Origin: Candidatus Babeliales bacterium
GTDB taxonomy: Bacteria > Babelota > Babeliae > Babelales > JACPOV01
NCBI GenBank assembly: GCA_050250855.1
Contig: JBFWNW010000001.1
Span: 1 to 64,000 of the forward strand
Direction: 5' to 3'
Length of the DNA stretch: 64,000 bases
The notes under the pieces were generated by a model. That model saw only the letters and a list, made by a program, of their open reading frames with translations. It did no database searches and was not told the origin of the DNA. Within the stretch, counting starts at the first letter, position 1. Every line of letters starts with the position of its first letter. Positions 1-29,318 of the stretch are shown here, piece by piece. The position numbers and the translations under genes were made by a program.

Positions 1-1975
1 ATACGCAAACGATTATTTGCGCTAAGTTTGAAGATACGTGGACAATACTAGAGAAAATAGATGTTGATGTTAACGGTATATTTACAGCAATAGATAATAT
101 AAATATCTGTCCAACTATTGATCTATCGGGTGTATTTACTGCGCTAGAGTTCGGCTTCTATGATACGCAAACAATACTCTGTGCGAAGTTTGAAGATACG
201 TGGACAATACTAGAGAAAATAGATGTTGATGTTAACGGTATATTTACAGCAATAGATAATATAAATATCTGTCCAACTATTGATCTATCAGGTGTATTTA
301 CTGCGCTAGAGTTCGGCTTCTATGACACGCAAACAATATTGTGCGCTAAGTTTGAAGATACGTGGACAATACTAGAGAAGATAGATGTAGATGTTAATGG
401 TATATTTACTGCAATTGAAGCTATACCAACAGTAGATCTGTCAGGTATATTCACTGCACTTGAATTTGGCTTCTACGATACACAAACAATACTGTGTGCT
501 AAGTTTGAAGAAACATGGACAATACTAGAGAAAATAGATGTTGATGTTAACGGTATTTACACGGTACTAGATAACTTAGTATTTTCAGTAACGATAGGTG
601 AAATAACGGTATCAGTATCAATAGATTTATCAGGCGTATTTACTGCGCTAGAGTTCGGCTTCTATGATACGCAAACGATTATTTGCGCTAAGTTTGAAGA
701 TACGTGGACAATACTAGAGAAAATAGATGTTGATGTTAACGGTATATTTACAGCAATAGATAATATAAATATCTGTCCAACTATTGATCTATCAGGTGTA
801 TTTACTGCGCTAGAGTTCGGCTTCTATGATACGCAAACAATAATCTGCGCTAAGTTCCAGGATACATGGACAATATTAGATGTTCTGTGTGATATTTTAG
901 TATTGGCAGAAGATATTGATTGTGAGATAGAAGCAACACAATCTATTATATGCACTAAATTCCAAGATACATGGACAATACTAGAGAACATTTCAGATAA
1001 GATAATGACATTAAGTAATGTAGACTTGTCTGGTATATATACGGTATTAGATGTTAACTTCTCAGGCATATTTACCGCACTAGAATTCGGCTTCTATGAT
1101 ACGCAAACAATAATGTGTGCTAAGTTTGAAGAAACATGGACAATACTAGATGTTCTGTGTGATATTTTAGTATTAGTAGAAGATATAGATTGTGAATTAG
1201 CAGAAACGCAATCTATTATATGCACTAAATTCCAAGATACCTGGACGATCTTGCAAAAGATTGATGTTGATGTTAATGGTATATTCACAGCAATAGATAA
1301 TATAAATATCTGTCCAACTATTGATCTATCGGGTGTATTTACTGCGCTAGAGTTCGGCTTCTATGACACGCAAACAATACTCTGTGCTAAATTTGAAGAT
1401 ACGTGGACAATATTAGCAGATATAGAAGCGGATATTTCAGGGATATTTACCGCACTTGAATTTGGATTTTATGATACTCAAACAATTATCTGTGAAAAAT
1501 TCCAAGATACATGGACAATATTAGCAAATATAGAGGTAGATATTTCAGGTATATTTACTGCGCTAGAGTTCGGCTTCTATGACACGCAAACAATAATCTG
1601 TGCAAAATTTGAAGATACGTGGACAATATTAGCAGATATAGAAGCGGATATTTCAGGGATATTTACCGCACTTGAATTTGGCTTTTATGATACGCAGACA
1701 ATTATCTGTGAAAAGTTCCAGTATACATGGACAATATTAGCAAATATAGAGGCAGATATTTCAGGGATATTTACCGCACTTGAATTTGGATTTTATGATA
1801 CTCAAACAATTATCTGTGACAAGTTTGAGCAAACATGGACTATTCTTAATGCGCTATGCAATGGTATTGAAGGTTTGCAAGCATCAATTGATGATCTATG
1901 CTGTGAAATGTCTGATGGCTTTGAACAAACGGTGAGTATTATTGTAGGGGATATCTTCGATACATGGACTATTTT
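1..1975 (+). repeat. Intragenic tandem coding repeats (stalk), units of 162 bp/54 aa, 108 bp/36 aa and variants
   Basis: Unit recurs at positions 1, 163 and 325 (162-bp period); gatatttcag recurs at 1431 and 1539 (108-bp period). About 14 C-x-K-F-x-x-T-W-T-I-L copies are visible in the window. Confidence 0.9.
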
Positions 1976-5641: not shown

Positions 5642-5665
5642 TATATTAAAAAAAGGATACTATTT

Positions 5666-7441: not shown

Positions 7442-7463
7442 TAATTATTCGCATTGAAAGTAA

Positions 7464-7491: not shown

Positions 7492-7495
7492 AATT

Positions 7496-8116: not shown

Positions 8117-8286
8117 AAAAACCCTTTTTATATGAAAGTAATAAAATTGATCTCAATTAAGGTTATCCTAAATTTTTTTTTTTGGTAAGGTTGATTAATA
8201 ATATTTAAAAAAGTATTGACAAAATTAAAAATATTTGACTCTACTTATAAATAATAAAAAATGGATTCAAACAAGGAAAAAAGAGA

Positions 8287-10020: not shown

Positions 10021-10062
10021 AAAAATAGTGTGATGATGAAAACTTTATAAAGGAGTTAACCA

Positions 10063-11667: not shown

Positions 11668-11701
11668 GGTAAAAAGTGAATAGTATAAAAAAGGATGAAG
11701 C

Positions 11702-16500: not shown

Positions 16501-17702
16501 TCTCTTTTGTTGCGACGTTTACAGGTGTTTTTGTTAATGCGCTAAGTAATGTGGCCTGGAATCCTAGTGGCACGGTGCTAGCCTATCACTCTCTAGCACC
16601 ACTATCAACTGATTTTTCGGCGTATGGTTTTAATGGTGAATCGCTCTTTCTTATTACTACTTCACAAGTGGGGTCTCTCGCTGCTGATGTATATGATTGG
16701 TCACCTGATGGGCAATTTTTAGCAATTGGAGGGGCTGCTTTTGGTTCTTTATCGGTACAAATTTTCTCTTTTAATGGAACTGATTTTACATTCATAACCA
16801 GCGAGGGGGGAAGCCGGAGTAATGGTTTTTGGTCACCTGCTGGGCAATACATTGCCACAGTCGAGCCAGGCGCTAATGAAGTTAGGATCTATTCTTTCAA
16901 TGGTCTTACTTTAACTCTCATAGATTCAGCGAGTATTATGACTCCGCGTTGGGCTTCTTGGTCATCTGATGGAACTTATTTGGCAGTATCTACAGCTTCT
17001 GGAGTTTTACAGATTTATACCTTTGATGGGCTTACGTTAACTCCTGTAACCAATATTACCACGAGTCCTTCCAACATCTTGTTCACAAGCTTTTTTAATC
17101 CACAAGATGCACACATAATAGCAAGTGTTGACCAGGATTTTCTATACATCTTTTCATTTGACGGAACAACTCTACTAGAAGAAGAGCGTATTTCACGTCA
17201 AGCAGTAGATTCTAATTTTCAGGTCCTGGCGACTTTGATTGCTTGGTCGCCAGATGGTCAGTTTCTTACAGTAAGCGGTAGGGTTTTTTCTCCGCCGACT
17301 CCGACTTTATTGGTTAATTATCTGTGGGATGGAACCTGTTTACGTTTACAGAGTAAGACCGAAATTTTGTCGCCGCTTTCGACGTCTGCCAATGGATTGG
17401 CGTGGTCGCCATCTGGAAAAAGTATTGCTTTCGGTTCGCTATTTGGGACGGATCCTAGTGGTAATCTTTCAATCTACGATGTTGGGGGAACGATTCCCTC
17501 TAAAAATATAATTAAGAATAATCTTGTTTATTGTAATGGTGAACGTGGTGGTACTGGTGTAGGGATTTTAGGTTCAAGCTTTAACAATCTGATTATTGGG
17601 AATACGGCATTTCAGAATACAAATAATTATCAGTTGGTTAATAATGTGGCAATTACGGATGCGCCAACGTTATTGGAAAACATCTCCGTTCCATCAGTAT
17701 AA
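13503..17702 (+). CDS. Array paralog 7: exported long-stalk beta-helix protein with divergent 7-blade WD40 propeller
   Basis: N-terminal hydrophobic signal-like segment, 8+1 CEKFEFTWS stalk repeats, beta-helix nearly identical to paralog 1, 7 W[SN]P-type blades, ends LENISVPSV. Confidence 0.85.
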   Translation: MMKKFLSLYKVLNVVKIFYIASLFLFLPSNSFSHPLYKESLEKFKDKEVAVRHLNIVPVITSLEGYEHNSVLVSCKNKLEKGMQKLSIQDLCMLVEALDDYVTRSGERGLRPDAPPLIANDAVVGKSCCDLTQVIALLGALKKLLVKIEIDLCEKFEFTWSILEKIDIDINGIFTALDALECPTVDITGIFTALEFDFNNIQTIICEKFEFTWSILEKIDIDINGIYTALDALQCPTVDLTGIFTALEFDFNNIQTIICEKFEFTWSALEKIDIDINGIYTVLENLNITLTIGELNINVTIDVDLSGVFTALEFDFNNIQTIICEKFEFTWSALEKIDIDVNGIFTALDALQCPTVDITGIFTALEFDFNNIQTIICEKFEFTWSILEKIDIDINGIYTALNDITVNATIDVDLSGIFTALEFDFNNIQTIICEKFEFTWSILEKIDIDINGIYTALNDITVNATIDVDLSGIFTALEFDFNNIQTIICEKFEFTWSILEKIDIDINGIYTVLENLNITLTIGELNINVTIDVDLSGVFTALEFDFNNIQTIICEKFEFTWSALEKIDIDVNGIFTALDALQCPTVDLTGIFTALEFGFYDTQTIICEKFQFTWTILDCIEMQICDALQQLDEQIIDLCCQQNGLFQETWTILQEIICIEEQIFDDVELLGEQIVDLCCQQKSLCQETCTILGPIAAALCSPQEIRQAYVGVSTYTISQPGFYVFAENIIFSPASGQPALEITTDNVTIDMCGKTLRQGNAVAGVDGIRVPGNTTLAPRSHITIMNGGISSFTRSGIVVGTNPITPANTAARFINLNDLTISGCSRDGVEFASTTTISDIKLKNLAITSALNGISLTNVNRGLVAACDLVVNTTGAMLNQSNKICFKECKAEENIQAGFWLQNSSNNIFTACNAIGNGQDGTTNAYGFISANGRGNIFEQCNACCTITTQTTQDFIAAGFALTSSEMCSKIITCESFDNTATGSSIAYGIFLESTQTTAFSFVATFTGVFVNALSNVAWNPSGTVLAYHSLAPLSTDFSAYGFNGESLFLITTSQVGSLAADVYDWSPDGQFLAIGGAAFGSLSVQIFSFNGTDFTFITSEGGSRSNGFWSPAGQYIATVEPGANEVRIYSFNGLTLTLIDSASIMTPRWASWSSDGTYLAVSTASGVLQIYTFDGLTLTPVTNITTSPSNILFTSFFNPQDAHIIASVDQDFLYIFSFDGTTLLEEERISRQAVDSNFQVLATLIAWSPDGQFLTVSGRVFSPPTPTLLVNYLWDGTCLRLQSKTEILSPLSTSANGLAWSPSGKSIAFGSLFGTDPSGNLSIYDVGGTIPSKNIIKNNLVYCNGERGGTGVGILGSSFNNLIIGNTAFQNTNNYQLVNNVAITDAPTLLENISVPSV
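13959..15345 (+). repeat. Intragenic tandem coding repeats, 8 units plus 1 variant, with three alternative linkers
   Basis: CEKFEFTWS[IA]LEKIDID[IV]NGI[FY]T..linker..G[IV]FTALEFDFNNIQTII; linker order A A B A C C B A. Confidence 0.9.
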
Positions 17703-17752: not shown

Positions 17753-20410
17753 ATGAAGTGGATACATAAGATTTTTGCCCTAATAATGGTGGGATTGCTG
17801 TTCAGTTCTGTGCAAGCAATGGGTAATGATCTGCTTGGCGCCGTATCAGATGATCAGTTGGAAGAATTGGATGTTCTGCGCGCTTGTGTTGGTAATTCAT
17901 GCGATAAGGTTGGGGATATTTCTGATCTTTTGTGTGAAATTAATGAAGAGCTTAGTGAAGTATTTACTGTTTTTGCAAATTTTTCCATAACACTCAGTAT
18001 TGACTTAACGATTAATCCAACGATAGATCTTTCAGTAATATTTACCGCTCTTGCATTTGGTTTTTATGATACGCAAACAATAGTCTGTGAAAAATTTGAG
18101 CAAACATGGACAATTTTACAAAAAATAGATGGAGAAGTTAATGAAATCTTTGCAGCACTAGCACTAGCAGAACAAGATGAGTTTAACGTCATTGCATTTG
18201 GTTTTTATGATACGCAAACAATAATCTGTGAAAAATTTGAGCAAACATGGACCATGCTAGCTCCGGTTGTTGTAGCGTTATGTTCGCCACAAGAAATTCT
18301 GCAAGCAAATATTGGTGTAACGACGTATACCATTTCACAACCAGGTTTTTATGTATTTGCAGAAAATATAGTATTTAGTCCAGCATCAGGCCAGCCTGCA
18401 TTAGAAATTACTACCGATAATGTAACGATTGATATGTGCGGCAAAAGTTTAACGCAAGGCAATGCGGTTGCAGGCGTTGACGGGATCAGAATTCCTGGCA
18501 ATACTACGCTCGCGCCACGCAGAAATGTGACCATTATGAACGGTGGCATAAGCGGGTTTACCAGATCTGGTATTGTGGTTGGCACGAATCCGGTAACGCC
18601 AGCAAATACCGCAGCGCGTTTCATTACCATCAAGAATATGAAGATTTTTAACTGTAGCTCTTCAGGTGTTGAACTTTTATCAAGCAGCAATATTACGGGA
18701 GCCTCTTTAGAAAATCTTGAACTTTTTTCTAATCAGATCGGTGCATCATTGACCAATGTTGTTGATAGTTCAGTAAAAAGTTGTGATATGATCTTAAATA
18801 CAACGGGTATCAGCTTGAATCAATCGTCTGATACTATACTAAAAAAATGCAAAGCGCATAAAAATACGCAAGCAGGATTTGCGTTACAAAATGCTCATAA
18901 TAATACCATTACCAACTGTGTTGCCATAAAAAATGGCCAAGGTGGCAGTACCGATGCGTATGGATTTGTTACGCAGGGCGGTTATGCAAATGTATTTGAA
19001 GAATGTATTGCAGAATCTACCGTAACAACGGCAACGGCAGATACTAACGTTGCTGCAGGTTTTGCCCTCACAGGAACAGAACGTTGTACTAAAATTATTA
19101 ATTGTGAAAGTTTAACAAATACAACGCTTGATGGTTTTGCAACACCGTACGGTATTTTGATAACCAGCACCTTCCCGGCAGCAGGTTTTACGTTATCAGT
19201 AACGGTGGGAGGTATTCAGAACTTTAACGATGTAAGCTGGTCCTCTGATGGTAAATATTTGGCAGCGGTTGATACTATCGGAACTCTTTCTGTATATGTA
19301 TTTGATCCGGTAGTAAAAACCTTGTCATTTTTAGTGTTTGTTTCTCATGGTGCAAGTTTGAATAGCGTTGCCTGGTCACCTGATGGAAATTATATTGCCA
19401 TAGGTGGCGCGCTATCGGGTGGATTTACTGTTCGCACCTATTTATTTGATGCACAAGCAGGAACGTTAACGAATGTAGGTACGGCTAATACTACCGGAAC
19501 CGTTAATGCTGTTGCGTGGTCACCCAATGGCCTGTATCTTTTGGTTGGTTATGCTTTAACGGGTTCTTTTGATTTTACGATTTATCGTACCAAAGGTAAT
19601 GAAGGAGGTTTAATCCTAGCAGTACGAGGACTGCTAGGAGCAGGAGTTAACTCGGTAGATTGGCTTGATAATAAAACATTTGCTGTCGGGGGACCGGTAT
19701 CAGGGGGAGCTTCTATTAAGGTGTTCAGTTTTAGTCCAGAAGTGCAAGGAGCTGATCCATTAAGTTATGAGGCAGCACGACCAGTTATTTTTCGTTCTTT
19801 AGCATCGCCGGGAATTGATATTCAAGAAGTTCGTTGGTCTCCAGATAAGCGCTATTTGGCCGCATGTGGGAATGGAGCCGGCACTAATATTTTTGTTTAT
19901 ACCTTTAATAATGGAACTACCTTGGGTAGTAGTCCAGCAACAGCAACATTTGGCGCTACAGCCAATTCACTTGATTGGTCACCCGATGGTAAATATATAG
20001 GAGTTGGGGGCATTAATACGCAAGGCCTTAGAATCTATGGATTTTCAAGAACAGCATTTAGTTTGTCCTCACCTAGTATTGTGGGTGTTACTTCTACCAT
20101 AAATGGGGTTTCATGGTCACCAAGTGGTGAATTTTTTGCTACGGCTGATAATGGTCTTTTGGTAACCGTTTATAATGCTCTTGTATTTAATGCCATCATG
20201 AATATTGTAAAAAATAATATAGTTTATGGTAACAATGGTAATAGTTTGCCGAGTGGTTTAGGCATATCAGGCTCTAGTTTTAGTAATATTATTGTTAGCA
20301 ATACTGCTTACAATAATCAGTTTGATTATGAATTTGTGACCAATGTATTTAGTAGTGGGATTAATGGAAGCCCGAGTATTTTAGAGAACGTTTCGGTGCC
20401 GCCGTATTAA
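17753..20410 (+). CDS. Array paralog 8: exported short-stalk beta-helix + WD40 propeller protein
   Basis: Signal peptide ending SVQA, LRAC motif, two CEKFEQTWT units, conserved helix, 7 WD blades, ends LENVSVPPY. Confidence 0.85.
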   Translation: MKWIHKIFALIMVGLLFSSVQAMGNDLLGAVSDDQLEELDVLRACVGNSCDKVGDISDLLCEINEELSEVFTVFANFSITLSIDLTINPTIDLSVIFTALAFGFYDTQTIVCEKFEQTWTILQKIDGEVNEIFAALALAEQDEFNVIAFGFYDTQTIICEKFEQTWTMLAPVVVALCSPQEILQANIGVTTYTISQPGFYVFAENIVFSPASGQPALEITTDNVTIDMCGKSLTQGNAVAGVDGIRIPGNTTLAPRRNVTIMNGGISGFTRSGIVVGTNPVTPANTAARFITIKNMKIFNCSSSGVELLSSSNITGASLENLELFSNQIGASLTNVVDSSVKSCDMILNTTGISLNQSSDTILKKCKAHKNTQAGFALQNAHNNTITNCVAIKNGQGGSTDAYGFVTQGGYANVFEECIAESTVTTATADTNVAAGFALTGTERCTKIINCESLTNTTLDGFATPYGILITSTFPAAGFTLSVTVGGIQNFNDVSWSSDGKYLAAVDTIGTLSVYVFDPVVKTLSFLVFVSHGASLNSVAWSPDGNYIAIGGALSGGFTVRTYLFDAQAGTLTNVGTANTTGTVNAVAWSPNGLYLLVGYALTGSFDFTIYRTKGNEGGLILAVRGLLGAGVNSVDWLDNKTFAVGGPVSGGASIKVFSFSPEVQGADPLSYEAARPVIFRSLASPGIDIQEVRWSPDKRYLAACGNGAGTNIFVYTFNNGTTLGSSPATATFGATANSLDWSPDGKYIGVGGINTQGLRIYGFSRTAFSLSSPSIVGVTSTINGVSWSPSGEFFATADNGLLVTVYNALVFNAIMNIVKNNIVYGNNGNSLPSGLGISGSSFSNIIVSNTAYNNQFDYEFVTNVFSSGINGSPSILENVSVPPY

Positions 20411-20414
20411 TGAG

Positions 20415-20636
20415 CGTTCGAATGCTTCGACCCATTCGACAAGCTCAGGGCAGGCCCCCTCGAATGGCCTTTAGTCCCGAGCAGCTGTAAAGCTGACGAG
20501 GGGTCAGCACGAACGGTTTAAGGTCCTTCGCCTTACCTGTTCTGCTGTGCCCGGCGTAAGCACTTTAGTCCGAAGAAGTTTTAACGAAGGCGGATTGTGC
20601 GAAGTCTGGGAGCTTGTCGAAGGAATGTAGTGCGAA
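20415..20636. repeat. Nested composite REP-like palindromic element, copy 1
   Basis: Arms gcttcgac..tcagcacgaacgg and ccttcgcct..gagcttgtcgaagg, each interrupted by other short palindromic modules; homologous to 23466, 26342 and (inverted) 37863. Confidence 0.85.
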
Positions 20637-20656
20637 TGCAAAAAAAAGGATAAAAG

Positions 20657-23461
20657 ATGAACTGTATACATAAATTTTTTGCCATAATAATGGCAGGGTT
20701 CATAGCATGCTCCGTGCAAGCCATGGATAATCACTTTAGTAAAATATCAGACGATCAATTGCAAGAATTGATTATTACTGCCTATCAGGAACTAAAAGAG
20801 CTAGATAGCTTGCCAGATGAATTGTCTGCTTGTTATCAAAACATTATGCAGGGTATTCCTGTAGAGCGCTCAGAGCTAGAGCGCATGAGTTCTCTTTTGG
20901 CATCTGATGCTCTACGCGCTTGTTATGGCACTTCATGTGGCAAATTGAGTTGTATGCTGAATCTGTTGTGTGAAATTAATGAAGATATTACCGGAATTTT
21001 TACCGTTATTGACAATATTTCCATAACGCTGACCGGTGATATAATGATTGGTGCAATAGTTGACCTATCAGGCGTATTTACCGCTCTAGCATTTGGTTTT
21101 TATGATACGCAAACAATAATCTGTCAAAAGTTTGAACAAACATGGACAATTTTACAAAAGATTGATGATGATGTGATGGGTGTTTTTACTGCAATAAATG
21201 CACTAGAAGATTTTTCTGGTATATTTACAGCTCTTGAATTTGGATTCTATGATACGCAAACAATAATCTGTGAAAAATTTGAGCAAACATGGACTATACT
21301 AGCTCCGGTTGTTGTAGCATTATGTTCGCCACAAGAAATTCTGCAAGCAAATATTGGTGTAACAACGTATACCATTTCACAACCAGGTTTTTATGTATTT
21401 GCAGAAAATATAGTATTTAGTCCAGCATCAGGCCAGCCTGCATTAGAAATTACTACCGATAATGTAACGATTGATATGTGTGGCAAAACGTTAACGCAAG
21501 GCAATGCGATTGCAGGCGTTGATGGCATACGAATTCCTGGCAATACAACAGCGGCGCCGCGCAGCAATGTGACCATTATGAATGGTGGAATTAGTGGTTT
21601 TTCAAGATCTGGTATTGTGGTTGGCACAAATCCAATAACGCCAGCAAATACCGCAGCGCGTTTAATTAGTATCAAGAATATGAAAATTTTTAGCTGTAGC
21701 TCTATTGGCGTTGAATTTGTATCAGGCAGTAGTATTGCACAAGCAACCTTAGAAAATCTTGAACTGTTTTCTAATTTGATCGGTGCATCATTGACTAATG
21801 TTGTTGATAGTTCAATAAAATCTTGTGATATGATCTTAAATACAACGGGTATTAGATTAAATCTATCGTCTGACATTACAGTAGAAAAATGCAAAGCTCA
21901 TAAAAATACACAAGCTGGTTTCTGGCTGCAGAATGCTAGCAATAATACGCTTACTCAATGCTTTGCAACAAATAATGGCCAAGGTGGCAACACTGATGCC
22001 TATGGCTTTATAGCACAAGGTGGTTATGCCAACGTATTTGAAGAATGTATAGCGCAAGGAACCTTCAGTAATGCAACGGGTGATGATAACGTTGCAGCAG
22101 GTTTTGCCCTAACCAGTACCGAGATGTTTTCAAAAATTATTAACTGTGAAAGTTTGACTAATACAACGGTCAGTGGTTTTGCAACTCCTTATGGCATCTT
22201 GTTAACTAATACGCTTCCAGAAACAGGCCTTACTTTGGCATTTAGCGCTACGGATATTTTTGGATTATTCCATCTAGCATGGACGCCTGACGGTAAGTAT
22301 TTAGCAGCAACTCCAAATGCTGGTGCAATTTATTTAAATGAATTTGATCCTAGAGAAGGTTTGTTTCTTGTAGCGACTCAGAGTACTATTAACGGAGTAG
22401 CTTTTGGCTTTGCGTGGTCACCTGATGAAAGATTTTTTGCTTTGCTTAATGGTGGCTCTACTAATCTTGATCTGTATTCATTTGATCAAGAGACGAAATT
22501 TTTAACATTTCTAAATACCACCCTTGTTCCTCCTATGGCCTCGACTCTTGCATGGTCGCCAAATGGCCAGTACTTGTTGGTTGGTTATCCTCTTACAGGT
22601 GGTGGCGGTGGTGGTTTTGATTACACGATTTATATTTTTACGGGAGGAGCGCTAGGAGGTCCTATTGGTCTTTTTTTGGATAGAACCTTTGGCGCAGGCG
22701 TTAATTCTGTTGATTGGCTTGATAATGAAACTTATGCTGTAGGTGGACCTGTAACAGGAGGAGGCTATTCTATAGGGGTTTATAGTTTTAATCCAGCGTT
22801 TCAGTTACCTCTTGGTGATAAATTCTTGACTTTATTACTTACAACTGCATCGCCGGGAGTTGCAATCAACCGAGTTAAGTGGTCTCCAGACAAACGCTAT
22901 TTGGCGGCTATTGACGCTGGAGGTGGTCTGTTTGTTTATACGTTTGATGGAACAACACTAGGTACTACTCCTGCAACGGCAACAGTGTCTGCTGTAGCAA
23001 ATGATTTTGACTGGTCGCCCGATGGTAAATATATAGCGGTTGCTCATGATCAGGGTTTAGATGTTTACCGATTTTCAAGATCATTATTTAGCTTGTCATT
23101 GCAAGATACTCTTTCTACCGGTAGCCAATCATTAGCTGTTGCATGGTCACCAACAGGAGAGTTTTTAGCCTTACCTATTTTACAAGGTTTTCCAAGTACC
23201 CCTGTTAATACCCTTAATATATACAATGCTCTTGAATTTACTGCTACCAAAAATATTATAAAAAATAATGTTGTTTATGGTAATAATGGTAATAGTTTGC
23301 CAAGTGGTTTAGGAATATCTGGGTCAAGCTTTTCTAATCTGATTATTGGTAATACTGCTTATAATAATCAGTTTAATTATGAATGTGTGACCAACGTATT
23401 TAATAGTGGTATTAATGCAAGCCCGAGTATATTAGAGAATGTTTCCGTGCCGCCGTATTAA
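20657..23461 (+). CDS. Array paralog 9: exported short-stalk beta-helix + WD40 propeller protein with helical module
   Basis: Signal peptide ending SVQA, helical module, LRAC, conserved helix, 7 WD blades, ends LENVSVPPY. Confidence 0.85.
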   Translation: MNCIHKFFAIIMAGFIACSVQAMDNHFSKISDDQLQELIITAYQELKELDSLPDELSACYQNIMQGIPVERSELERMSSLLASDALRACYGTSCGKLSCMLNLLCEINEDITGIFTVIDNISITLTGDIMIGAIVDLSGVFTALAFGFYDTQTIICQKFEQTWTILQKIDDDVMGVFTAINALEDFSGIFTALEFGFYDTQTIICEKFEQTWTILAPVVVALCSPQEILQANIGVTTYTISQPGFYVFAENIVFSPASGQPALEITTDNVTIDMCGKTLTQGNAIAGVDGIRIPGNTTAAPRSNVTIMNGGISGFSRSGIVVGTNPITPANTAARLISIKNMKIFSCSSIGVEFVSGSSIAQATLENLELFSNLIGASLTNVVDSSIKSCDMILNTTGIRLNLSSDITVEKCKAHKNTQAGFWLQNASNNTLTQCFATNNGQGGNTDAYGFIAQGGYANVFEECIAQGTFSNATGDDNVAAGFALTSTEMFSKIINCESLTNTTVSGFATPYGILLTNTLPETGLTLAFSATDIFGLFHLAWTPDGKYLAATPNAGAIYLNEFDPREGLFLVATQSTINGVAFGFAWSPDERFFALLNGGSTNLDLYSFDQETKFLTFLNTTLVPPMASTLAWSPNGQYLLVGYPLTGGGGGGFDYTIYIFTGGALGGPIGLFLDRTFGAGVNSVDWLDNETYAVGGPVTGGGYSIGVYSFNPAFQLPLGDKFLTLLLTTASPGVAINRVKWSPDKRYLAAIDAGGGLFVYTFDGTTLGTTPATATVSAVANDFDWSPDGKYIAVAHDQGLDVYRFSRSLFSLSLQDTLSTGSQSLAVAWSPTGEFLALPILQGFPSTPVNTLNIYNALEFTATKNIIKNNVVYGNNGNSLPSGLGISGSSFSNLIIGNTAYNNQFNYECVTNVFNSGINASPSILENVSVPPY

Positions 23462-23465
23462 TGAG

Positions 23466-23708
23466 CGTTCGAATGCTTCGACCCATTCGACAAGCTCAGG
23501 GCAGGCCCCCTCGAATGGCCTTTAGTCCCGAGCAGCTGTAAAGCTGACGAGGGGTCAGCACGAACGGTTTAAGGTTCTTCGCCTTACCTGTCCTGCTGTG
23601 CCCGGCGTAAGCACTTTAGTCCGAAGAAGTTTTAACGAAGGCGGATTATGCGAAGCCTGGGAGTACTCGCGAAGGAAGCGAACAAAGTGAGTTGAAGGGT
23701 AGTGCGAA
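23466..23708. repeat. Nested composite REP-like element, copy 2 (extra insert 23664-23691)
   Basis: Near-identical to 20415-20636 except that cttg in gag-cttg-tcgaagg is replaced by tactcgcgaaggaagcgaacaaagtgag. Confidence 0.85.
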
Positions 23709-23728
23709 TGCAAAAAAAAGGATAAAAG

Positions 23729-26335
23729 ATGAACTATATACATAAAATTTTTGCCATAATAATGGCAGGGTTAATGGCGTGTTCCGTGCAAGCCATGGAT
23801 AATGAAGAATCAGAAGCGATGCGTTCGTGTTGCAATTCAAACAATAAATTTGACCAAGTGTTGGAGCTTGTGTGTGAAGTTAATGAAGATATAACAGGAA
23901 TATTTACCGCTCTTGAAAATATCGATATAAAGCTCAACGTTAATTTAACAATTAATGTAACGATTGATCTTGCAGAAGTATTTACCGCTCTAGCATTTGG
24001 TTTTTATGATACACAAACAATAATCTGTCAAAAGTTTGAACAAACATGGACAATTTTACAAAAGATTGATGATGATGTGACGGGTGTTTTTACTGCAATA
24101 AATGCACTAGAAGATATTTCTGGTATATTTACAGCTCTTGAATTTGGATTCTATGATACGCAAACAATAATCTGTGAAAAATTTGAGCAAACGTGGACAA
24201 TAATAGCCCCGGTTGCAGCAGCGTTATGTTCGCCACAAGAAATTCTGCAAGCAAATATTGGTGTAACAACGTATACCATTTCACAACCAGGTTTTTATGT
24301 ATTTGCAGAAAATATAGTATTTAGTCCAGCATCAGCTCAGCCTGCATTAGAAATTACTTCCAATAATGTAACGATTGATATGTGCGGCAAAACGTTAACG
24401 CAAGGCAATGCGGTTGCAGGCGTTGATGGTATAAGAGCTCCTGGTAATACAACAGCAGCGCCGCGCAGCAATGTGACCATTATGAACGGTGCAATTAGCG
24501 GCTTTACCAGATCTGGTATTGTGGTTGGCACAAATCCGGTAACGCCAGCAAATACCGCAGCGCGTTTTGTTACCATCAAGAATATGAAGATTTTTAACTG
24601 TAGCTCTGTAGGCGTTGAATTTGTATCAAGTAGTAGTATTGCACAAGCAACCTTAGAAAATCTTGAGCTTTTTTCTAATCAGATCGGCGCATCGTTGACC
24701 AATGTGATTGCTGGTTCAATAAAAAGCTGTGATATGACGTTAAATACAACCGGTCTTAGATTAAATCAATCATCTGATATTGTTATAAAAAAATGCAAAG
24801 CGCATAAAAATACGCAAGCTGGCTTTTGGCTGCAAAATGCTAGCAATAACACGCTTACTAAATGCTTTGCCATAAAAAATGGCCAAGGTGGGAGCACTAA
24901 TGCCTATGGCTTTATAGCACAAGGCGGTTATGCCAACGTATTTGAAGAATGTATAGCAGAGGGAACGCTCAGTAATGCAACGGGTGATGACAACGTTGCA
25001 GCAGGCTTTGCCCTAACCAGTACCGAAATGTTTTCAAAAATTATTAACTGTGAAAGTTTGACCAATACAACAGTAAGCGGTTTTGCCATTCCTTACGGCA
25101 TTTTGTTAACGAATACATTTCCAGCAACAGGCCTTACCTTAACGGTCTCTGCCAGAAGTTTTACAAATACGCTTTATACAAACAATTCATGGTCCCCTAA
25201 TGGCAAATATTTAGCATCATCTCCAGCATCTCCAACGACAAATTTGCTTATAGCAGAGTTTGATTCTGTAGCAAGAACATTGAATCCATATTTTACTGAT
25301 CCTCTTGTCCTTACTTCTACGGTAAATACGATTGCATGGTCTCCTGATGGGCGTTATGTTGCTATAGGTACTAGCGCTGGTGATGTGAGTACTTATTTAC
25401 TTGATGTAGCGGGACATCTATTAACTCTTATTGATACTCAGAACACTACGGGGGCTGTTAATTCTGTTTCATGGTCGCCCAATGGCCAGTATCTTTTGGT
25501 TGGCCATAATCTAGCGGGTGGCTTTGATTTTCGCATTTATCGTTCTAATGGTGGGGTTTTAAGTCTAGTTCTATCCTCAGCATTAGGGCTCGGAGCTAAC
25601 TCTGTTGATTGGCGCGATAATCTAACCTTTGCTGTAGGCGGGGTGATATCAGCGGGTGTTTCTATCAGAGCATATAGTTTTAACCCCATGACTAATATAG
25701 CTACTTCACTTTCATCAGCATCGCCGGGCATTGATATTCAGGAAGTTCGTTGGGCTTCAGATAAATGCTATTTAGCTGCCTCTGGTAGTGGAGTAGGTAC
25801 TAATATTTTTGTTTATCCATTTAGTGGTACTTCTTTGGGCACACCAGCAACAGCAACGTTTGGCGATACAGCCAATTTTCTTGTTTGGTCACCTGATGGT
25901 AAATATATAGCGATTGGCGGCGTAACGCCACAGGGTGTAAAAGTGTATAGATTTTCAAGAACATTATTTAGTTTATCTTTTCAGAGTTCTGTTCCAGCAT
26001 CGGGGGATGTTATTGGTCTTGATTGGTCACCAAGTGGTGAATTTCTTAGTGTTTCATATAGCACTGGGTCTTTTATTAATCTCAATTTCAGGATATACAA
26101 TGCTCTTGAATTTACCGCTGCCAAGAATATTATAAAAAATAATGTTGTTTATTGCAGTAATGGTGATAGTTTGCCAAGTGGCATAGGAATATCAGGTTCA
26201 AGCTTGTCTAATTTGATTATAGGTAATACTGCGTATGAAAATGAATTTGATTATGAATTTGTGACCAATGTATTTAATAGTGGGATTAATGGAAGCCCGA
26301 GTATATTAGAGAACGTTTCCGTGCCGCCGTATTAA
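23729..26335 (+). CDS. Array paralog 10 group member: exported short-stalk beta-helix + WD40 propeller protein lacking the helical module
   Basis: Signal peptide ending SVQA directly followed by MDNEESEAMRSCC; conserved helix, 7 WD blades, ends LENVSVPPY. Confidence 0.85.
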   Translation: MNYIHKIFAIIMAGLMACSVQAMDNEESEAMRSCCNSNNKFDQVLELVCEVNEDITGIFTALENIDIKLNVNLTINVTIDLAEVFTALAFGFYDTQTIICQKFEQTWTILQKIDDDVTGVFTAINALEDISGIFTALEFGFYDTQTIICEKFEQTWTIIAPVAAALCSPQEILQANIGVTTYTISQPGFYVFAENIVFSPASAQPALEITSNNVTIDMCGKTLTQGNAVAGVDGIRAPGNTTAAPRSNVTIMNGAISGFTRSGIVVGTNPVTPANTAARFVTIKNMKIFNCSSVGVEFVSSSSIAQATLENLELFSNQIGASLTNVIAGSIKSCDMTLNTTGLRLNQSSDIVIKKCKAHKNTQAGFWLQNASNNTLTKCFAIKNGQGGSTNAYGFIAQGGYANVFEECIAEGTLSNATGDDNVAAGFALTSTEMFSKIINCESLTNTTVSGFAIPYGILLTNTFPATGLTLTVSARSFTNTLYTNNSWSPNGKYLASSPASPTTNLLIAEFDSVARTLNPYFTDPLVLTSTVNTIAWSPDGRYVAIGTSAGDVSTYLLDVAGHLLTLIDTQNTTGAVNSVSWSPNGQYLLVGHNLAGGFDFRIYRSNGGVLSLVLSSALGLGANSVDWRDNLTFAVGGVISAGVSIRAYSFNPMTNIATSLSSASPGIDIQEVRWASDKCYLAASGSGVGTNIFVYPFSGTSLGTPATATFGDTANFLVWSPDGKYIAIGGVTPQGVKVYRFSRTLFSLSFQSSVPASGDVIGLDWSPSGEFLSVSYSTGSFINLNFRIYNALEFTAAKNIIKNNVVYCSNGDSLPSGIGISGSSLSNLIIGNTAYENEFDYEFVTNVFNSGINGSPSILENVSVPPY

Positions 26336-26341
26336 TGAGCT

Positions 26342-26481
26342 TTCGAATGCTTCGACACGCTCAGCACGAACGGTTTAAGGTCCTTCGCCTTACCTGTTCT
26401 GCTGTGCCCGGCGTAAGCACTTTAGTCCGAAGAAGTTTTAACGAAGGCGGATTGTGCGAAGTCTGGGAGCTTGTCGAAGGG
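26342..26481. repeat. Nested composite REP-like element, copy 3 (left arm uninterrupted)
   Basis: gcttcgac-acgc-tcagcacgaacgg without the 72-bp insert; right half nearly identical to copy 1. Confidence 0.85.
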
Positions 26482-26510
26482 GTGTGGTTACGCAAAAAAA
26501 AGGATAAAAG

Positions 26511-29318
26511 ATGAACTGTATACATAAATTTTTTGCCATAATAATGGCAGGATTGATGGCATGTTCTGTGCAAGCCGTTGATAATAATCGCTTTAGTAAA
26601 ATGTCAAATGATCAGCTGCAAGAATTGATTGTTACTGCCTATCAAGAAATGAAAGAACTAGAGATTTTGCCAGATACGAGCAGTGTGCTCCATGTTTGTT
26701 ATCAAAACATTATGCATGGCATGTGCGTGGAGCGATCAATGCTTGAAGAGGTTTGCTCTTTTTTAGTATCTGATGCGGTGCGCTCTTGTTTTGATAATTC
26801 ATGTAGTAAGTTGGCTTTCGTATTGAATCTTTTGTGTGAAATTAATGAAGATATTACCGGAATTTTTACCGTTATTGACAATATTTCTATAATTACCCTA
26901 ACGTTTGATGTAACGCTTGGTGCAACAGTTGATCTTTCAAGCGTACTTACCGTCCTAGCATTTGATTTTTATGATACGCAAACGGTAGTGTGCCAAAAGT
27001 TTGAAGAAACATGGACAATTTTACAAAAAATAGATGATGATCTGACTACGCTAATAAAAGATATTTCTAGTGTATTTACTGCCGTTGCATTTGGTTTTTA
27101 TGATACGCAAACAATAATCTGTGAAAAATTTGAGCAAACGTGGACAATAATAGCCTCAGTTGCAGCAGCATTATGTTCGCCACAAGAAATTCTGCAAGCA
27201 AATATTGGTGTAACAACGTATACCATTTCACAACCAGGATTTTATGTATTTGCAGAAAATATAGTATTTAGTCCAGCATCAGGCCAGCCTGCATTAGAAA
27301 TTACTTCCGATAATGTAACGATTGATATGTGCGGCAAAACATTAACGCAGGGCAATGCGGTAGCAGGCGTTGATGGCATACGAATTCCTGGCAATACAAC
27401 GCTAGCCCCACGCAGCAATGTGACCATTATGAATGGTGCTGTTAGCGGATTTACCAGATCTGGTATTGTGGTGGGCACTAATCCAATAACCCCAGCAAAT
27501 ACCGCGGCACGCTTGATTACCATTAAGGATATGAAAATTTTTAGCTGCAGCTCGGTGGGTGTTGAATTTGTATCAGGCAGCAATATTACGGGAGCCTCTT
27601 TAGAGAATCTTGAGCTTCTTTCTAATTTGATCGGCGCATCGTTGACCAATGTTGTTGATAGTTCAATAACATCATGTGATATGACGCTAAATACAACAGG
27701 TATCAGATTAAATCTATCATCTGATATTGTCATAGAAAAATGCAGAGCACATGAAAATACACAGGCAGGTTTCTGGCTGCAGAATTCTAATAATAATACG
27801 CTTACTAAATGCCTTGCAATAAATAATGGCCAAGGTGGCAGCACTAATGCGTATGGCTTTATAGCGCAGGGCGGTTTTGCCAATGTATTTGAAGAATGCA
27901 TAGCGCAAGGAACGCTGAGTAATGCAACCGGTGATGATGATATTGCCGCAGGGTTTGCATTAACAAGTACCGAAATGTGCTCAAAAATTATTAATTGTGA
28001 AAGTTTAACCAATACAACGGTGAGCGGTTTTGCAATTCCTTATGGTATTTTGTTAACCAATACGTTCCCCGGAACAGGTCTTACGTTATCTGTTACGCAA
28101 GGTATTGTTACTGTTCCTACGTGCCTAAATTGGTCGCCTGATGGGAAGTATTTAGCAGTTGGAAATTCAAATGGAGCATCAAGTACTCTTTTTGTTTTTA
28201 GGTTTGACCCTGTAGCAAAAACGTTGGCATTTTTATCTTCTCCAGCCGCCGCTCATGGAGGTATAGTAACTTCAGTTTCCTGGTCGCCTGATGGGCGATT
28301 TATTGCTCTAGGTGGTGTACCACCAGGAGGTGTTCCAGGAGGTGTTACGATTCGAACCTATTCATTTAATGCAGCAGCAGGAACGGTAACGCTTATTGAT
28401 TCTGAGTCTACTTCAATACAATCTGTTCGTTCCGTTTCATGGTCACCAAATGGGATGTATCTTCTTGCGGGTCAGGATTCGACGACGACTGGAGTGCCTG
28501 GTGGTATTAATCTTCGTGTGTATCGTTCTAATGGAGGATCGTTAACTCTTGTTCGATCATCAGCATTCTCAACAGGAGCTCAAGCAGTTTTTTCTGTTGA
28601 TTGGCTCAATGATCAGAAGTTTGCTGTAGGAGGAGTTGTAGATGCAGGAATATCTATTGGTGTATTTAGGTTCAATCCTATGACTAATGCTGTTACTTCA
28701 CTTTCATCAGCATCGCCAGGAATTCAGATCAATGGAGTTCGCTGGTCTCCCGACAAACGTTATTTAGCTGCATGTGGTACCGGAGCAGGAACGAATATTT
28801 TTATCTATCCATTTGATGGTACTACTTTGGGAACCCCAGCAACAGCAACATTTGGCGCTACAGCCAGTTCTCTTGACTGGTCACCAGATGGTAAATATAT
28901 AGGAGTTGGCGGTACTGCTGCGCGAGGTATTAGAGTATATAGGTTTTCAAGAACATTATTTAGTTTATCCTCGCCAAGTATTGTTCTATTTGGCGGTGGC
29001 GGAATCACTTTTGAAGGAGTCGAATGGTCGCCAAGTGGGGAGTTTTTTGTTAGTAGTAATCAAATTTTAATTACGGTTTACAGTGCCCTTGTATTTAGTG
29101 CCATAAGAAATCTTGTAAAAAATAATGTGGTGTATTGTAATAATGGTGATAGTTTGCCAAGTGGTCTAGGAATATCAGGTTCAAGCTTTAGTAATATGAT
29201 TATTGGCAACCAGGCTTATAATAACCAGTTTAACTATGAATTTGTGACAAACGTATATAAAGGTGGCATTAACGGCGGTTCAAGTATTTTAGAAAATATT
29301 TCCGTGGCCCCTTATTAA
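26511..29318 (+). CDS. Last array paralog: exported short-stalk beta-helix + WD40 propeller protein with helical module
   Basis: Signal peptide ending SVQA, helical module, VRSC, conserved helix, 7 WD blades, ends LENISVAPY. Confidence 0.85.
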   Translation: MNCIHKFFAIIMAGLMACSVQAVDNNRFSKMSNDQLQELIVTAYQEMKELEILPDTSSVLHVCYQNIMHGMCVERSMLEEVCSFLVSDAVRSCFDNSCSKLAFVLNLLCEINEDITGIFTVIDNISIITLTFDVTLGATVDLSSVLTVLAFDFYDTQTVVCQKFEETWTILQKIDDDLTTLIKDISSVFTAVAFGFYDTQTIICEKFEQTWTIIASVAAALCSPQEILQANIGVTTYTISQPGFYVFAENIVFSPASGQPALEITSDNVTIDMCGKTLTQGNAVAGVDGIRIPGNTTLAPRSNVTIMNGAVSGFTRSGIVVGTNPITPANTAARLITIKDMKIFSCSSVGVEFVSGSNITGASLENLELLSNLIGASLTNVVDSSITSCDMTLNTTGIRLNLSSDIVIEKCRAHENTQAGFWLQNSNNNTLTKCLAINNGQGGSTNAYGFIAQGGFANVFEECIAQGTLSNATGDDDIAAGFALTSTEMCSKIINCESLTNTTVSGFAIPYGILLTNTFPGTGLTLSVTQGIVTVPTCLNWSPDGKYLAVGNSNGASSTLFVFRFDPVAKTLAFLSSPAAAHGGIVTSVSWSPDGRFIALGGVPPGGVPGGVTIRTYSFNAAAGTVTLIDSESTSIQSVRSVSWSPNGMYLLAGQDSTTTGVPGGINLRVYRSNGGSLTLVRSSAFSTGAQAVFSVDWLNDQKFAVGGVVDAGISIGVFRFNPMTNAVTSLSSASPGIQINGVRWSPDKRYLAACGTGAGTNIFIYPFDGTTLGTPATATFGATASSLDWSPDGKYIGVGGTAARGIRVYRFSRTLFSLSSPSIVLFGGGGITFEGVEWSPSGEFFVSSNQILITVYSALVFSAIRNLVKNNVVYCNNGDSLPSGLGISGSSFSNMIIGNQAYNNQFNYEFVTNVYKGGINGGSSILENISVAPY

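What the first reader, a model, noticed from the sequence alone, without database searches (positions are those of the whole stretch)
17753..29318. Constant-region / variable-region contrast between the four clustered propeller paralogs
Seen: the beta-helix start is identical at the DNA level between copies, synonymous sites included (110 bp at 18329-18438 equals 21371-21480; near-identical at ~24276, ~27222 and ~2047). After the motif PYGIL[LI]T the first propeller blades become barely alignable (GFTLSVTVGGIQNFNDVSW / GLTLAFSATDIFGLFHLAW / GLTLTVSARSFTNTLYTNNSW / GLTLSVTQGIVTVPTCLNW), then similarity returns at KNN[IV]VY. Inference: gene conversion or recent duplication homogenises the scaffold while diversifying selection acts on propeller loops.
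Basis: partly seen in the sequence, partly recalled or inferred. Interest (0 to 1): 0.78.

Follow-up and report, generated by a model that had tools for sequence, protein, structure and literature searches.

The report
Mosaic beta-helix/propeller gene family
Four neighbouring genes of a protist-parasite bacterium encode exported proteins whose rod-like scaffold is kept alike by copying between the genes while the propeller-shaped head has drifted far apart; this is a clear example of a known way for surface-protein families to evolve, and selection for diversity is not shown.

Summary
Four tandem genes (A 17753-20410, B 20657-23461, C 23729-26335, D 26511-29318) of a 1.2-Mb Dependentiae/Babeliales genome encode a signal peptide, Cys-marked repeats and a right-handed beta-helix with a 7-bladed WD40 propeller inserted before its last coils.

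A 195-nt tract at the beta-helix start is 96-97% identical in all six pairs (dS 0.06-0.12). dS is 0.27-0.65 just downstream and about 0.9-1.1 in the propeller. The 110-nt core is also 103-104/110 identical in two distant paralogs, E and F.

An ortholog pair from two species is saturated at synonymous sites in the same tract, so the identity is not a DNA-level constraint. Adjacent segments support conflicting quartet trees (AU 0.013 and 0.019). Gene conversion is therefore supported.

Diversifying selection is not shown. Omega is below 1 in every partition (ML at most 0.42; NG86 at most 0.62), and synonymous sites are saturated.

Variation is highest in the top-face loops, outer strand d and blades 7, 1 and 2. 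It is pervasive rather than confined to one face.

The family is large and unnamed (330 clusters at E<=1e-30). This scan already noted the same phenomenon in other Dependentiae genomes (e1-3622567, e1-2378638, e1-2072293). I class it as a new variant of a known kind, of moderate interest.

The parts
17753..20410 (+). Paralog A (885 aa): signal peptide, 2 N-terminal repeats, beta-helix, inserted propeller, C-terminal beta-helix cap
   Evidence: ORF, translation, Pfam Beta_helix, NosD and WD40 above cut-off, AF2 model of residues 166-885
20657..23461 (+). Paralog B (934 aa), same architecture with a longer N-terminal segment shared with D
23729..26335 (+). Paralog C (868 aa)
26511..29318 (+). 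Paralog D (935 aa). A second public assembly differs only at I636R, N647T and M649R (blade 3)
18272..18466 (+). Homogenised tract in A (beta-helix start, 65 alignment columns, 64 codons compared). By offset from the exact matches, the counterparts are about 21314-21508 (B), 24218-24412 (C), 27165-27359 (D), 1989-2183 (E) and 15591-15785 (F)
   Evidence: dS 0.06-0.12 among A-D, and 96-97% nt identity. Exact runs up to 116 nt
18287..19162 (+). Beta-helix, N-terminal part, in A (model residues 14-305)
   Evidence: DSSP strands and pLDDT 85-93. VIA Z 36.8 to AlgE4 A-module 2pyg_A and Z 35.3 to phi29 gp12 3gq7_A
19184..20182 (+). Seven-bladed WD40 propeller in A (model residues about 313-645). The variable region is chiefly blades 1-3 and 7
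   Evidence: 28 strands in 7 blades. Foldseek and VIA hits to WD40 propellers, 5yzv_A Z 39.5. dN 0.57-0.58 in blades 1-3 and 7
20204..20407 (+). C-terminal beta-helix coils and tail (KNNIVY ... ENVSVPPY), which resume the helix after the propeller
   Evidence: The beta-helix alignments to 2pyg_A and 3gq7_A span model residues 14..702 and 4..702 with only 321-329 residues aligned, so they skip the propeller. dN 0.12
20411..20656 (.). A-B spacer, near-identical to the B-C and C-D spacers, built from dispersed GC-rich repeats
   Evidence: Alignment A2. Identities 0.905-0.961. Genome-wide copies
23462..23728 (.). B-C spacer (same repeat elements)
26336..26510 (.). C-D spacer (same repeat elements, one block missing)
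3..4001 (+). Paralog E (5' end cut by the contig start; 11 N-terminal repeats). Its propeller blades are themselves a 129-nt tandem repeat. It shares the 110-nt core
13503..17702 (+). Paralog F (1399 aa; 8 N-terminal repeats). It shares the 110-nt core (103/110)

Best explanation
A-D are four tandem copies of one member of a large, unnamed Dependentiae family of Sec-exported modular proteins. Each has a signal peptide, a variable number of about 55-residue Cys-marked repeats, and a right-handed parallel beta-helix of the AlgE4 / phage-tailspike type. A complete 7-bladed WD40 propeller is inserted before the last helix coils.

Shown: the copies are old enough for synonymous sites in the propeller to be near saturation. 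Short-tract gene conversion between copies has repeatedly re-homogenised the 5' part: the last repeat, the beta-helix start and the intergenic spacers. To a lesser degree it has also reached the rest of the scaffold, and it extends to the distant paralogs E and F. This leaves a mosaic with conflicting segment trees.

Shown: the propeller, above all its top-face loops, outer strands and blades 7, 1 and 2, has accumulated substitutions and indels 4-6 times faster at non-synonymous sites than the scaffold.

Inferred: once diverged, the propeller DNA is too dissimilar to be converted, so the contrast reinforces itself.

Inferred: the proteins sit on or leave the bacterial surface. The beta-helix acts as a rigid scaffold, possibly glycan-binding. 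The propeller's top face acts as the specificity-determining binding surface, with each paralog binding a different host (protist) ligand.

Not shown: whether the propeller divergence was driven by positive selection or only by weak constraint.
For: Architecture:
- Pfam Beta_helix, NosD and WD40 are above cut-off in all six window paralogs checked, except WD40 itself in F (21.6 bits against a cut-off of 27).
- AF2 model pLDDT 76.8, pTM 0.65.
- Propeller: 5yzv_A Z 39.5, rmsd 1.6, 280 residues aligned.
- Beta-helix: 2pyg_A Z 36.8 (321 aligned over model 14..702) and 3gq7_A Z 35.3. The helix therefore continues across the propeller.

Conversion:
- dS is 0.06-0.12 in the 65-column tract (64 codons compared), against 0.27-0.65 in the next 63 codons.
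- Regional NG86 dS: 0.13 beta-helix start, 0.63 rest of the helix, 0.82-1.06 propeller, 0.73 C-terminal cap.
- Runs of concordant polymorphic sites: B-C p 0.0005-0.04, B-D p<0.0005, A-D p 0.003.
- AU tests conflict between adjacent segments (0.013 and 0.019).
- Ortholog control: H against G001h has dS 2.38 in the tract.
- No stable RNA fold (z +1.59) and no Rfam hit.
- Spacers are 90-96% identical.

The same kind of pattern occurs in other genomes:
- In the G023 tandem pair, pS is 0-0.21 (0.22 in the first, partly gapped window) over about 400 aligned codons (columns about 31-435), then 0.46-0.87.
- In the G040 pair, pS dips to 0.19-0.24 at the beta-helix start.

Variability map:
- Mean pairwise identity is 0.86 for the beta-helix, 0.80 for the C-terminal cap, 0.27 for top loops, 0.38 for strand d and 0.77 for the a-b turn.
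- Blades 1, 2 and 7 are the most variable.

Lineage:
- A-D form a 100%-supported clade, sister to E+F.
- LeuRS places the genome in TM6/Babeliales.
- Secreted WD40 and propeller proteins are reported for Babela (PMC4378268, passages read).
Against: - Omega is below 1 everywhere, so adaptive diversification is unproven.
- Alignment in blades 1, 2 and 7 is uncertain and inflates both dN and dS.
- Only four sequences were compared and dS is saturated.
- Variation is not confined to one face: c-d loops 0.36, strands about 0.45.
- No model coordinates were available, so the face and blade assignment rests on DSSP strand order and the textbook WD40 topology, not on measured solvent exposure or distance from the helix.
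- Export is inferred from an N-terminal signal-peptide-like sequence read by eye. No predictor was run.
- No host, expression or binding data exist.
- A low dS at the same place in the G040 pair could also point to a site-specific constraint. One ortholog pair from a propeller-less subfamily does not fully exclude that.
Confidence: 0.68

Rival explanations
1. One reading: positive (diversifying) selection on the propeller's ligand-binding loops, in an arms race with host receptors, drives the variable region, and conversion preserves the scaffold.
For: Omega in top loops and strand d (0.28-0.42) is 2-4 times that of the scaffold (0.11-0.16). NG86 omega is 0.62 in blades 1-3. Top-face loops are the least conserved and carry indels. 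The only difference between two public assemblies across the 2,438 residues compared is three clustered amino-acid changes in D's blade 3.
Against: No partition reaches omega 1. dS is saturated, so omega is unreliable in either direction. Bottom c-d loops and the strands are also highly diverged. The three D differences are all A:T to C:G changes with no donor in the genome. They are absent from the Logan contigs of runs X1 and X2, which match the window there, so they may be errors.
Confidence: 0.3
2. The constant tract is a functional DNA or RNA element inside the coding sequence, such as a regulatory RNA, an internal promoter or a recombinase site. It would be held by purifying selection at the nucleotide level rather than by conversion.
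For: All six window paralogs share the 110-nt core at 94-100%. A dip in pS lies at the same protein position in an unrelated genome's pair.
Against: The H / G001h orthologs have dS 2.38 in the tract. The RNA fold is no more stable than shuffles (z +1.59; 193 of 200 shuffles fold at least as well). There is no Rfam match in 1-30000. Promoter-like sites are not above the shuffle expectation. The tract boundaries differ between pairs, as expected for independent conversion events.
Confidence: 0.07
3. Assembly artefact: paralogous reads were collapsed or mis-joined, creating spurious identity or a spurious mosaic.
For: The genome is a metagenome-type assembly. The window starts inside paralog E's repeats. 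Logan contigs break at, and make ambiguous joints across, the shared tracts.
Against: Identical tracts are at most 116 nt, shorter than a normal read. A second independent public assembly gives identical A (363 aa), B (906 aa) and C (234 aa) sequences, and D with 3 changes. Logan contigs of two runs match the unique parts with 0 differences (table 8). All four ORFs are intact.
Confidence: 0.03

Closest known systems
Chlamydial polymorphic membrane proteins (Pmp) and rickettsial Sca autotransporters
   Same: Paralogous, partly tandem families of exported beta-helix proteins in obligate intracellular bacteria. They are thought to bind host cells and evolve by duplication and recombination (recalled knowledge; also named as closest by scan note e1-3622567).
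   Different: Pfam finds no autotransporter beta-barrel and no Pmp repeat domains. A WD40 propeller is inserted in the helix. The N-terminal Cys-marked repeats match no Pfam family above its cut-off and no NCBIfam family. The phylum is different.
Gene-conversion-driven adhesin and antigen families (Helicobacter bab/sab, Neisseria opa/pil, Anaplasma msp2, Treponema tprK)
   Same: Conserved flanks and a variable central or distal region. Short-tract conversion between paralogs gives mosaics (recalled knowledge; review PMC4534519 seen in a search listing only).
   Different: All four copies here are complete genes with their own start codon, ribosome-binding site and signal peptide. There is no single expression site with silent cassettes. 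The variable part is a whole folded domain at saturated divergence, not a short hypervariable loop. No switching has been observed.
Phage tailspikes and receptor-binding proteins (for example phi29 gp12) and the AlgE4 A-module
   Same: The beta-helix fold matches at Z 35-37. The logic of a constant anchor and a variable specificity part, with recombination at the conserved junction, is the same. The G023 pair shows it as a sharp breakpoint.
   Different: This is a chromosomal gene of a bacterium, not a virion part. No catalytic residues were examined. The specificity module is a WD40 propeller inserted in the helix rather than a C-terminal domain.
Secreted WD40 / beta-propeller proteins of Dependentiae (Babela massiliensis, TM6 genomes)
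   Same: Same phylum. WD40 and propeller proteins, some with signal peptides, are reported as putative host-interaction factors (PMC4378268 and PMC4776705, passages read).
   Different: The passages I read do not describe the beta-helix fusion, the tandem array or concerted evolution.

Membership tests
Right-handed parallel beta-helix (Pfam PF13229 Beta_helix / PF05048 NosD; CASH-type) | Profile match above the curated cut-off | tested here: met
   PF13229 scores 34-52 bits against a cut-off of 25.9 in all six window paralogs. NosD is above 23.6 in A-D, below it in F (22.7) and not among the rows shown for E. TIGR03804 para_beta_helix scores 33.2 against 19.45.
Right-handed parallel beta-helix (Pfam PF13229 Beta_helix / PF05048 NosD; CASH-type) | Predicted three-dimensional fold is a continuous beta-helix | tested here: met
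   AF2 pLDDT is 85-93 over the helix. VIA gives 2pyg_A Z 36.8, rmsd 2.5, 321 aligned, and 3gq7_A Z 35.3, rmsd 3.3, 329 aligned. Both span the model on both sides of the propeller.
WD40-repeat seven-bladed beta-propeller (PF00400) | Profile match above cut-off, and seven four-stranded blades | tested here: met
   PF00400 scores 43-108 bits against a cut-off of 27 in A-E; F is below it at 21.6. There are 28 strands in 7 blades. Foldseek 5yzv TM 0.81-0.84. VIA 5yzv_A Z 39.5.
Type V autotransporter / chlamydial Pmp | C-terminal outer-membrane beta-barrel translocator domain | tested here: not met
   No autotransporter or Pmp family appears among the Pfam hits of A-F at E<=0.01. The proteins end about 70 residues after the propeller with helix coils.
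Diversity-generating retroelement target | A reverse transcriptase and a template repeat in the genome | tested here: not met
   PF00078 was not found in the 95%-complete genome, and the control genomes were positive. Divergence includes many indels and all substitution types.
Cassette-type antigenic variation (expression site plus silent copies) | Donor copies are truncated or promoterless, with one expressed locus | tested here: not met
   All four copies are full-length ORFs with ATG, an upstream AAGGA-type ribosome-binding site and a signal-peptide-like N-terminus.
Concerted evolution by gene conversion among paralogs | Heterogeneous dS along the genes, with segment trees in significant conflict | tested here: met
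Concerted evolution by gene conversion among paralogs | Within-genome copies more alike than orthologs between species in the converted tract | tested here: inconclusive
   Only the propeller-less member H has an ortholog in the same-genus genome G001, with dS 2.38 in the tract. The G001 propeller gene found is the ortholog of G, not of A-D.
Positive (diversifying) selection | Omega above 1 at a class of sites | tested here: not met
   ML omega is at most 0.42 in every structural partition. Site models could not be run (no PAML or HyPhy, four saturated sequences).

The most novel reading that the evidence does not exclude
Each roughly 2-kb block (rest of the beta-helix, propeller, C-terminal cap) is bracketed by two homogenised DNA tracts. 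The 5' one is the 195-nt beta-helix-start tract (96-100% identical). The 3' one is the spacer of dispersed GC-rich repeats (90-96% identical). These tracts could be maintained recombination anchors. They would let the parasite exchange, duplicate or delete whole propeller heads between copies, and with E and F 13-25 kb away. That would amount to a built-in host-range or receptor-switching cassette system in a protist parasite, analogous to tail-fibre cassette exchange in phages. The sharp 5'-identical / 3'-divergent breakpoint in the G023 pair would be a fresh example of such a swap.
Probability: 0.12. Interest if true: 0.75.

Novelty: new variant of a known kind. Interest (0 to 1): 0.45.

Why it matters
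Dependentiae are widespread, almost uncultured parasites of protists, and their host-recognition molecules are unknown. This family is large (330 clusters at 50% identity at E<=1e-30), exported, lineage-specifically expanded and unnamed. It combines a tailspike-like rod with an inserted WD40 head that is the fastest-evolving part. That makes it a concrete candidate for the host-binding apparatus.

The locus also gives a clean, quantifiable case of concerted evolution restricted to part of a gene in a reduced 1.2-Mb genome, which must therefore keep active homologous recombination.

It does not by itself open a new kind of biology. Mosaic evolution of surface-protein families by gene conversion is well known.

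Tried and rejected
- Within-population variation by read laying: only Logan contigs (no raw reads) of four runs from landfill and freshwater metagenomes were available. They match the unique gene parts exactly, break at the shared tracts, and show cross-mapping of paralogs around 27193-27362. They also show ambiguous joints (for example 18237 to 27160) with sides of 20-36 letters. None of this can show or exclude minor variants or recombinant forms.
- Biopython ML pairwise dN/dS timed out. It was replaced by NG86 and YN00 and by iqtree GY+F3X4 per partition. YN00 failed for two short regions.
- DGR idea: no reverse transcriptase was found.
- RNA element idea: no stable fold and no Rfam match.
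- Promoter and terminator scan: not above shuffles.
- Donor search for the three-residue D variant: none in the genome.
- Mapping variable sites on three-dimensional coordinates: the model file is not exposed to the script machine. Only DSSP strand order could be used.
- NCBIfam gives only generic repeat hits, and nothing credible for the N-terminal repeats.
- Literature: searches for Dependentiae with WD40 or beta-helix, with gene conversion, paralogs, surface protein or adhesin, and with propeller, Chromulinavorax, Vermiphilus or Babela listed no paper on this fused family or its concerted evolution. Only the listings, and passages of three papers, were read.
- Segment trees with seven paralogs had low support inside A-D. 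The four-taxon AU test was more informative.
Full report
**Context.** The window is the first 64 kb of contig C1 of a 1.218-Mb, 11-contig genome that is 95% complete. Its leucyl-tRNA synthetase is closest (59-64% identity) to MAGs, two of which are labelled candidate division TM6 and Candidatus Babeliales. Earlier notes of this scan on the same genome say the same. The organism is therefore a member of Dependentiae, a phylum of obligate parasites of protists.

Window positions 1-29.3 kb form an island of beta-helix genes:
- Six carry a propeller: E 3-4001, F 13503-17702, and A-D.
- Of five further ORFs of 534-591 aa between E and F, four match Beta_helix.
- Housekeeping genes follow: leuS at 29414, then transaldolase and a glycosyltransferase.

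**Observation.** It extends to 116 nt (18323-18438 = 21365-21480). The same 110 nt match C at 106/110, D at 108/110, E at 104/110 and F at 103/110. E and F are only 52% and 45% identical to A as proteins over the aligned domain.

The quoted peptides after PYGIL[LI]T and the return of similarity at KNN[IV]VY are present. The propeller is not uniformly unalignable, however. Every blade keeps its WSPDGKYLA-type motif, and blades 4-6 are fairly conserved.

**Anatomy.** Each protein has these parts:
- an N-terminal sequence that looks like a Sec signal peptide (read by eye; no predictor was run);
- copies of a repeat of about 55 residues containing GIFTALEFGFYDTQTIICEKFEQTWTIL. There are two copies in A-D, 8-11 in F and E, and more than 16 in a 2427-aa relative on contig C4. 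The repeat matches no Pfam family above its cut-off and no NCBIfam family;
- a right-handed beta-helix;
- a WD40-like region;
- about 70 C-terminal residues with beta-helix-like NxIxGN motifs.

An AlphaFold2 model of A residues 166-885, built on a 10-sequence family alignment, has mean pLDDT 76.8 and pTM 0.65. It shows 28 strands in seven four-stranded blades.

Structure searches give the following:
- The propeller matches canonical WD40 propellers: Foldseek 5yzv TM 0.81-0.84, and VIA 5yzv_A Z 39.5, rmsd 1.6, 280 residues.
- The beta-helix matches the AlgE4 mannuronan epimerase A-module (2pyg_A, Z 36.8, 321 residues aligned over model 14..702).
- It also matches the phi29 gp12 appendage (3gq7_A, Z 35.3, 329 residues over 4..702).

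These helix alignments span both sides of the propeller with only about 320 residues aligned. The propeller is therefore an insertion into one continuous helix.

**dS along the genes.** On a codon alignment of A-D, Nei-Gojobori pS in 30-codon windows is 0.05-0.07 at columns 231-280 in all six pairs. It is 0.3-0.66 elsewhere.

Regional NG86 means over the six pairs:

| Region | dN | dS |
|---|---|---|
| N-terminus | 0.27 | 0.69 |
| Second repeat | 0.15 | 0.41 (B-C 0.12) |
| Beta-helix start | 0.04 | 0.13 |
| Rest of the beta-helix | 0.10 | 0.63 |
| Blades 1-3 | 0.57 | 0.92 |
| Blade 4 | 0.46 | 1.06 |
| Blades 5-6 | 0.22 | 0.82 |
| Blade 7 | 0.58 | 1.06 |
| C-terminal cap | 0.12 | 0.73 |

The contrast is real.

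**Conversion or constraint?** Four results favour conversion:
1. Conditioning on polymorphic sites, pair-specific runs of concordant sites exceed 2000 permutations. B-C has three adjacent runs at columns 157-216 (p 0.0005, 0.015, 0.0375). B-D has one at columns 108-126 (p<0.0005), and A-D one at columns 804-814 (p 0.003).
2. Quartet AU tests conflict. The beta-helix start supports AB|CD and rejects both alternatives (AU 0.013). The adjoining 228-codon helix segment rejects AB|CD (AU 0.019). The N-terminus prefers AC|BD, and the second repeat and C-terminal cap prefer AD|BC. The propeller is unresolved.
3. In the 65-column tract (A 18272-18466), A-D pairs differ at 5-8 of 192 nt over the 64 codons compared (dS 0.06-0.12). 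H, a propeller-less family member on C4, and its ortholog in the same-genus genome G001 differ at 48 nt. That pair has dN 0.12 and dS 2.38 there, so synonymous changes are tolerated when copies sit in different genomes.
4. The tract RNA folds no better than shuffles (z +1.59; 193 of 200 shuffles fold at least as well). Rfam finds nothing in 1-30000.

The spacers between the genes are also 90-96% identical. They are built from dispersed GC-rich repeats that occur elsewhere in the genome at 86-97% identity.

A-D form a clade with 100% support, sister to E+F. The one propeller gene found in G001 groups with G, not with A-D. The classical test with A-D orthologs therefore could not be done.

**Is the propeller under diversifying selection?** It is not shown.
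- NG86 omega is 0.62 (blades 1-3), 0.43 (blade 4), 0.27 (blades 5-6) and 0.54 (blade 7). YN00 gives 0.28 and 0.18 where it ran.
- ML GY94+F3X4 omega per structural partition: beta-helix 0.155, C-terminal cap 0.106, strands a-c 0.107, bottom loops 0.196, strand d 0.378, top loops 0.283. Top loops plus strand d of blades 7, 1, 2 and 3 give 0.418.
- Tree lengths of 6-9 substitutions per codon in the propeller partitions show saturation, so these omegas are rough.
- The safest statement is that both dN and dS are higher in the propeller, and that omega is 2-4 times that of the scaffold but below 1.

**Where the variation lies.** I used the DSSP strands of the model and the textbook WD40 topology (d-a and b-c loops on the top face; a-b and c-d loops on the bottom; recalled knowledge). 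Mean pairwise identity among A-D by element:

| Element | Mean pairwise identity |
|---|---|
| d-a loops | 0.25 |
| b-c loops | 0.31 |
| c-d loops | 0.36 |
| strand d | 0.38 |
| strands a, b, c | 0.45-0.49 |
| a-b turn | 0.77 |
| beta-helix | 0.86 |
| C-terminal cap | 0.80 |

- Top loops (0.27) differ from bottom loops (0.49) with permutation p 0.0002. That contrast is driven by the structural SPDG turn.
- By blade, 1, 2 and 7 are the most variable and 4-5 the least. Blades 7, 1 and 2 are neighbours in the ring, and blades 1 and 7 carry the chain ends that join the helix.
- Variation is thus enriched on the top face and in one sector, but it is pervasive.

**Other populations.** A second public assembly holds A (363 aa), B (906 aa) and C (234 aa) identical to the window apart from contig-edge first residues. 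Its D differs only at I636R, N647T and M649R in blade 3. No donor for that variant exists in the genome. Logan contigs of two landfill-metagenome runs match the window there. These differences may be real polymorphism or errors.

**The family elsewhere.**
- A search of 41 related genomes, including this one, found matches at E<=1e-10 in 18. The full helix-propeller-cap architecture occurs in another family of the order, in G023.
- HMMER against 1.84 billion representatives gave 19,744 hits at E<=0.001, 3,581 at 1e-10 and 330 at 1e-30.
- By my count, 52 of the 150 listed align in one stretch from the helix through the propeller into the cap. Some proteins exceed 3,000-4,700 aa.
- None of the cluster members looked up carries a name.
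- In G023, two adjacent paralogs have pS 0-0.21 (0.22 in the first, partly gapped window) and pN 0-0.18 (0-0.06 from column 61) over about 400 aligned codons (columns about 31-435). There is then an abrupt jump to pS 0.46-0.87 and pN 0.07-0.58 through the helix and propeller.
- In G040, a helix-only pair dips to pS 0.19-0.24 at the helix start, against 0.42-0.83 downstream.
- A constant 5' part and a divergent 3' head are therefore recurrent in this family.
- Three earlier notes of this scan describe the same family, the propeller insertion and concerted evolution in other Dependentiae genomes. I tested those claims independently on this locus.

**Interpretation.** Tandem duplication produced A-D within this lineage. 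Short-tract gene conversion keeps the 5' junction and the spacers alike and leaves a mosaic. The propeller has escaped homogenisation and diverged fastest on its top loops and outer strands.

Function is inferred from three points:
- the likely signal peptide;
- the tailspike/AlgE4-like rod;
- the WD40 head, a generic protein-binding platform.

Together these suggest exported host-binding proteins with paralog-specific ligands. This fits published remarks that secreted WD40 and propeller proteins of Dependentiae may act on the host (PMC4378268 and PMC4776705, passages read). PMC6561590 (passages) reports that 44% of Chromulinavorax CDS have signal peptides.

**Novelty.** Mosaic evolution of surface-protein families by gene conversion is a known kind. 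The helix-with-inserted-propeller architecture and its N-terminal repeats were not found in the literature searches I ran (listings and passages only). The family is nevertheless abundant in sequence databases. I rate it a new variant of a known kind, with interest 0.45.

Noticed in passing
window 2921-3748 (paralog E): E's propeller is a 129-nt tandem repeat (6.3 copies, 87% matches), so its blades are homogenised with each other inside one gene. This is the opposite of A-D, whose blades are all different. Paralog G (C1:152083-156690) looks similar at the protein level.
   Followed up: partly
window 3-1990, 13900-15560; genome C4:157739-165019; C1:152083-154950; C1:343000-348018(-): An N-terminal repeat of about 54-56 residues with a conserved Cys (GIFTALEFGFYDTQTIICEKFEDTWTIL...), present in 2 to more than 16 copies per protein. 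It has no credible Pfam or NCBIfam match. It is also attached to other beta-helix types, including a Gly-rich one at C1:344113-348018. Copy number differs between two assemblies of paralog G (1192 against 1522 aa).
   Followed up: partly
window 20411-20656, 23462-23728, 26336-26510: The spacers are made of two dispersed GC-rich elements. One of about 100 nt has at least 8 further copies at 90-93% identity. One of about 65 nt has 4 further copies (plus the C-D spacer) at 90-97%. They occur on contigs C1-C4 in an otherwise 35-40% GC genome, and are REP- or MITE-like.
   Followed up: partly
window 1-3 and genome C2:2-703(-): The window, and contig C1, begins inside the repeat region of paralog E. 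The end of contig C2 carries the same repeat on the opposite strand. The assembly probably breaks within this gene.
   Followed up: no
window 4028-13423: Five further ORFs of 534-591 aa lie between E and F. Four match Beta_helix (two of them also NosD above its cut-off), and 8287-10020 has no Pfam hit. With the six propeller-bearing genes, this makes about 29 kb of beta-helix genes in a row.
   Followed up: partly
L092 (G023:C1:1223000-1230000): Two adjacent family members in a complete 1.42-Mb genome are almost identical in DNA over about 400 aligned codons. They then become about as different as A-D's propellers at a sharp breakpoint inside the last N-terminal repeats. This looks like a recent 5' conversion or a swap of the 3' head.
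   Followed up: partly
window 28416-28457 (D residues 636-649): A second public assembly differs from the window only by three amino-acid changes within 14 residues of D's blade 3. No donor copy exists in the genome.
   Followed up: partly
C-termini of A-G (for example window 20381-20407): The family ends in a conserved ...LENVSVPP[YF] tail that is low-confidence in the model (pLDDT below 50). It might be a sorting or secretion signal.
   Followed up: no
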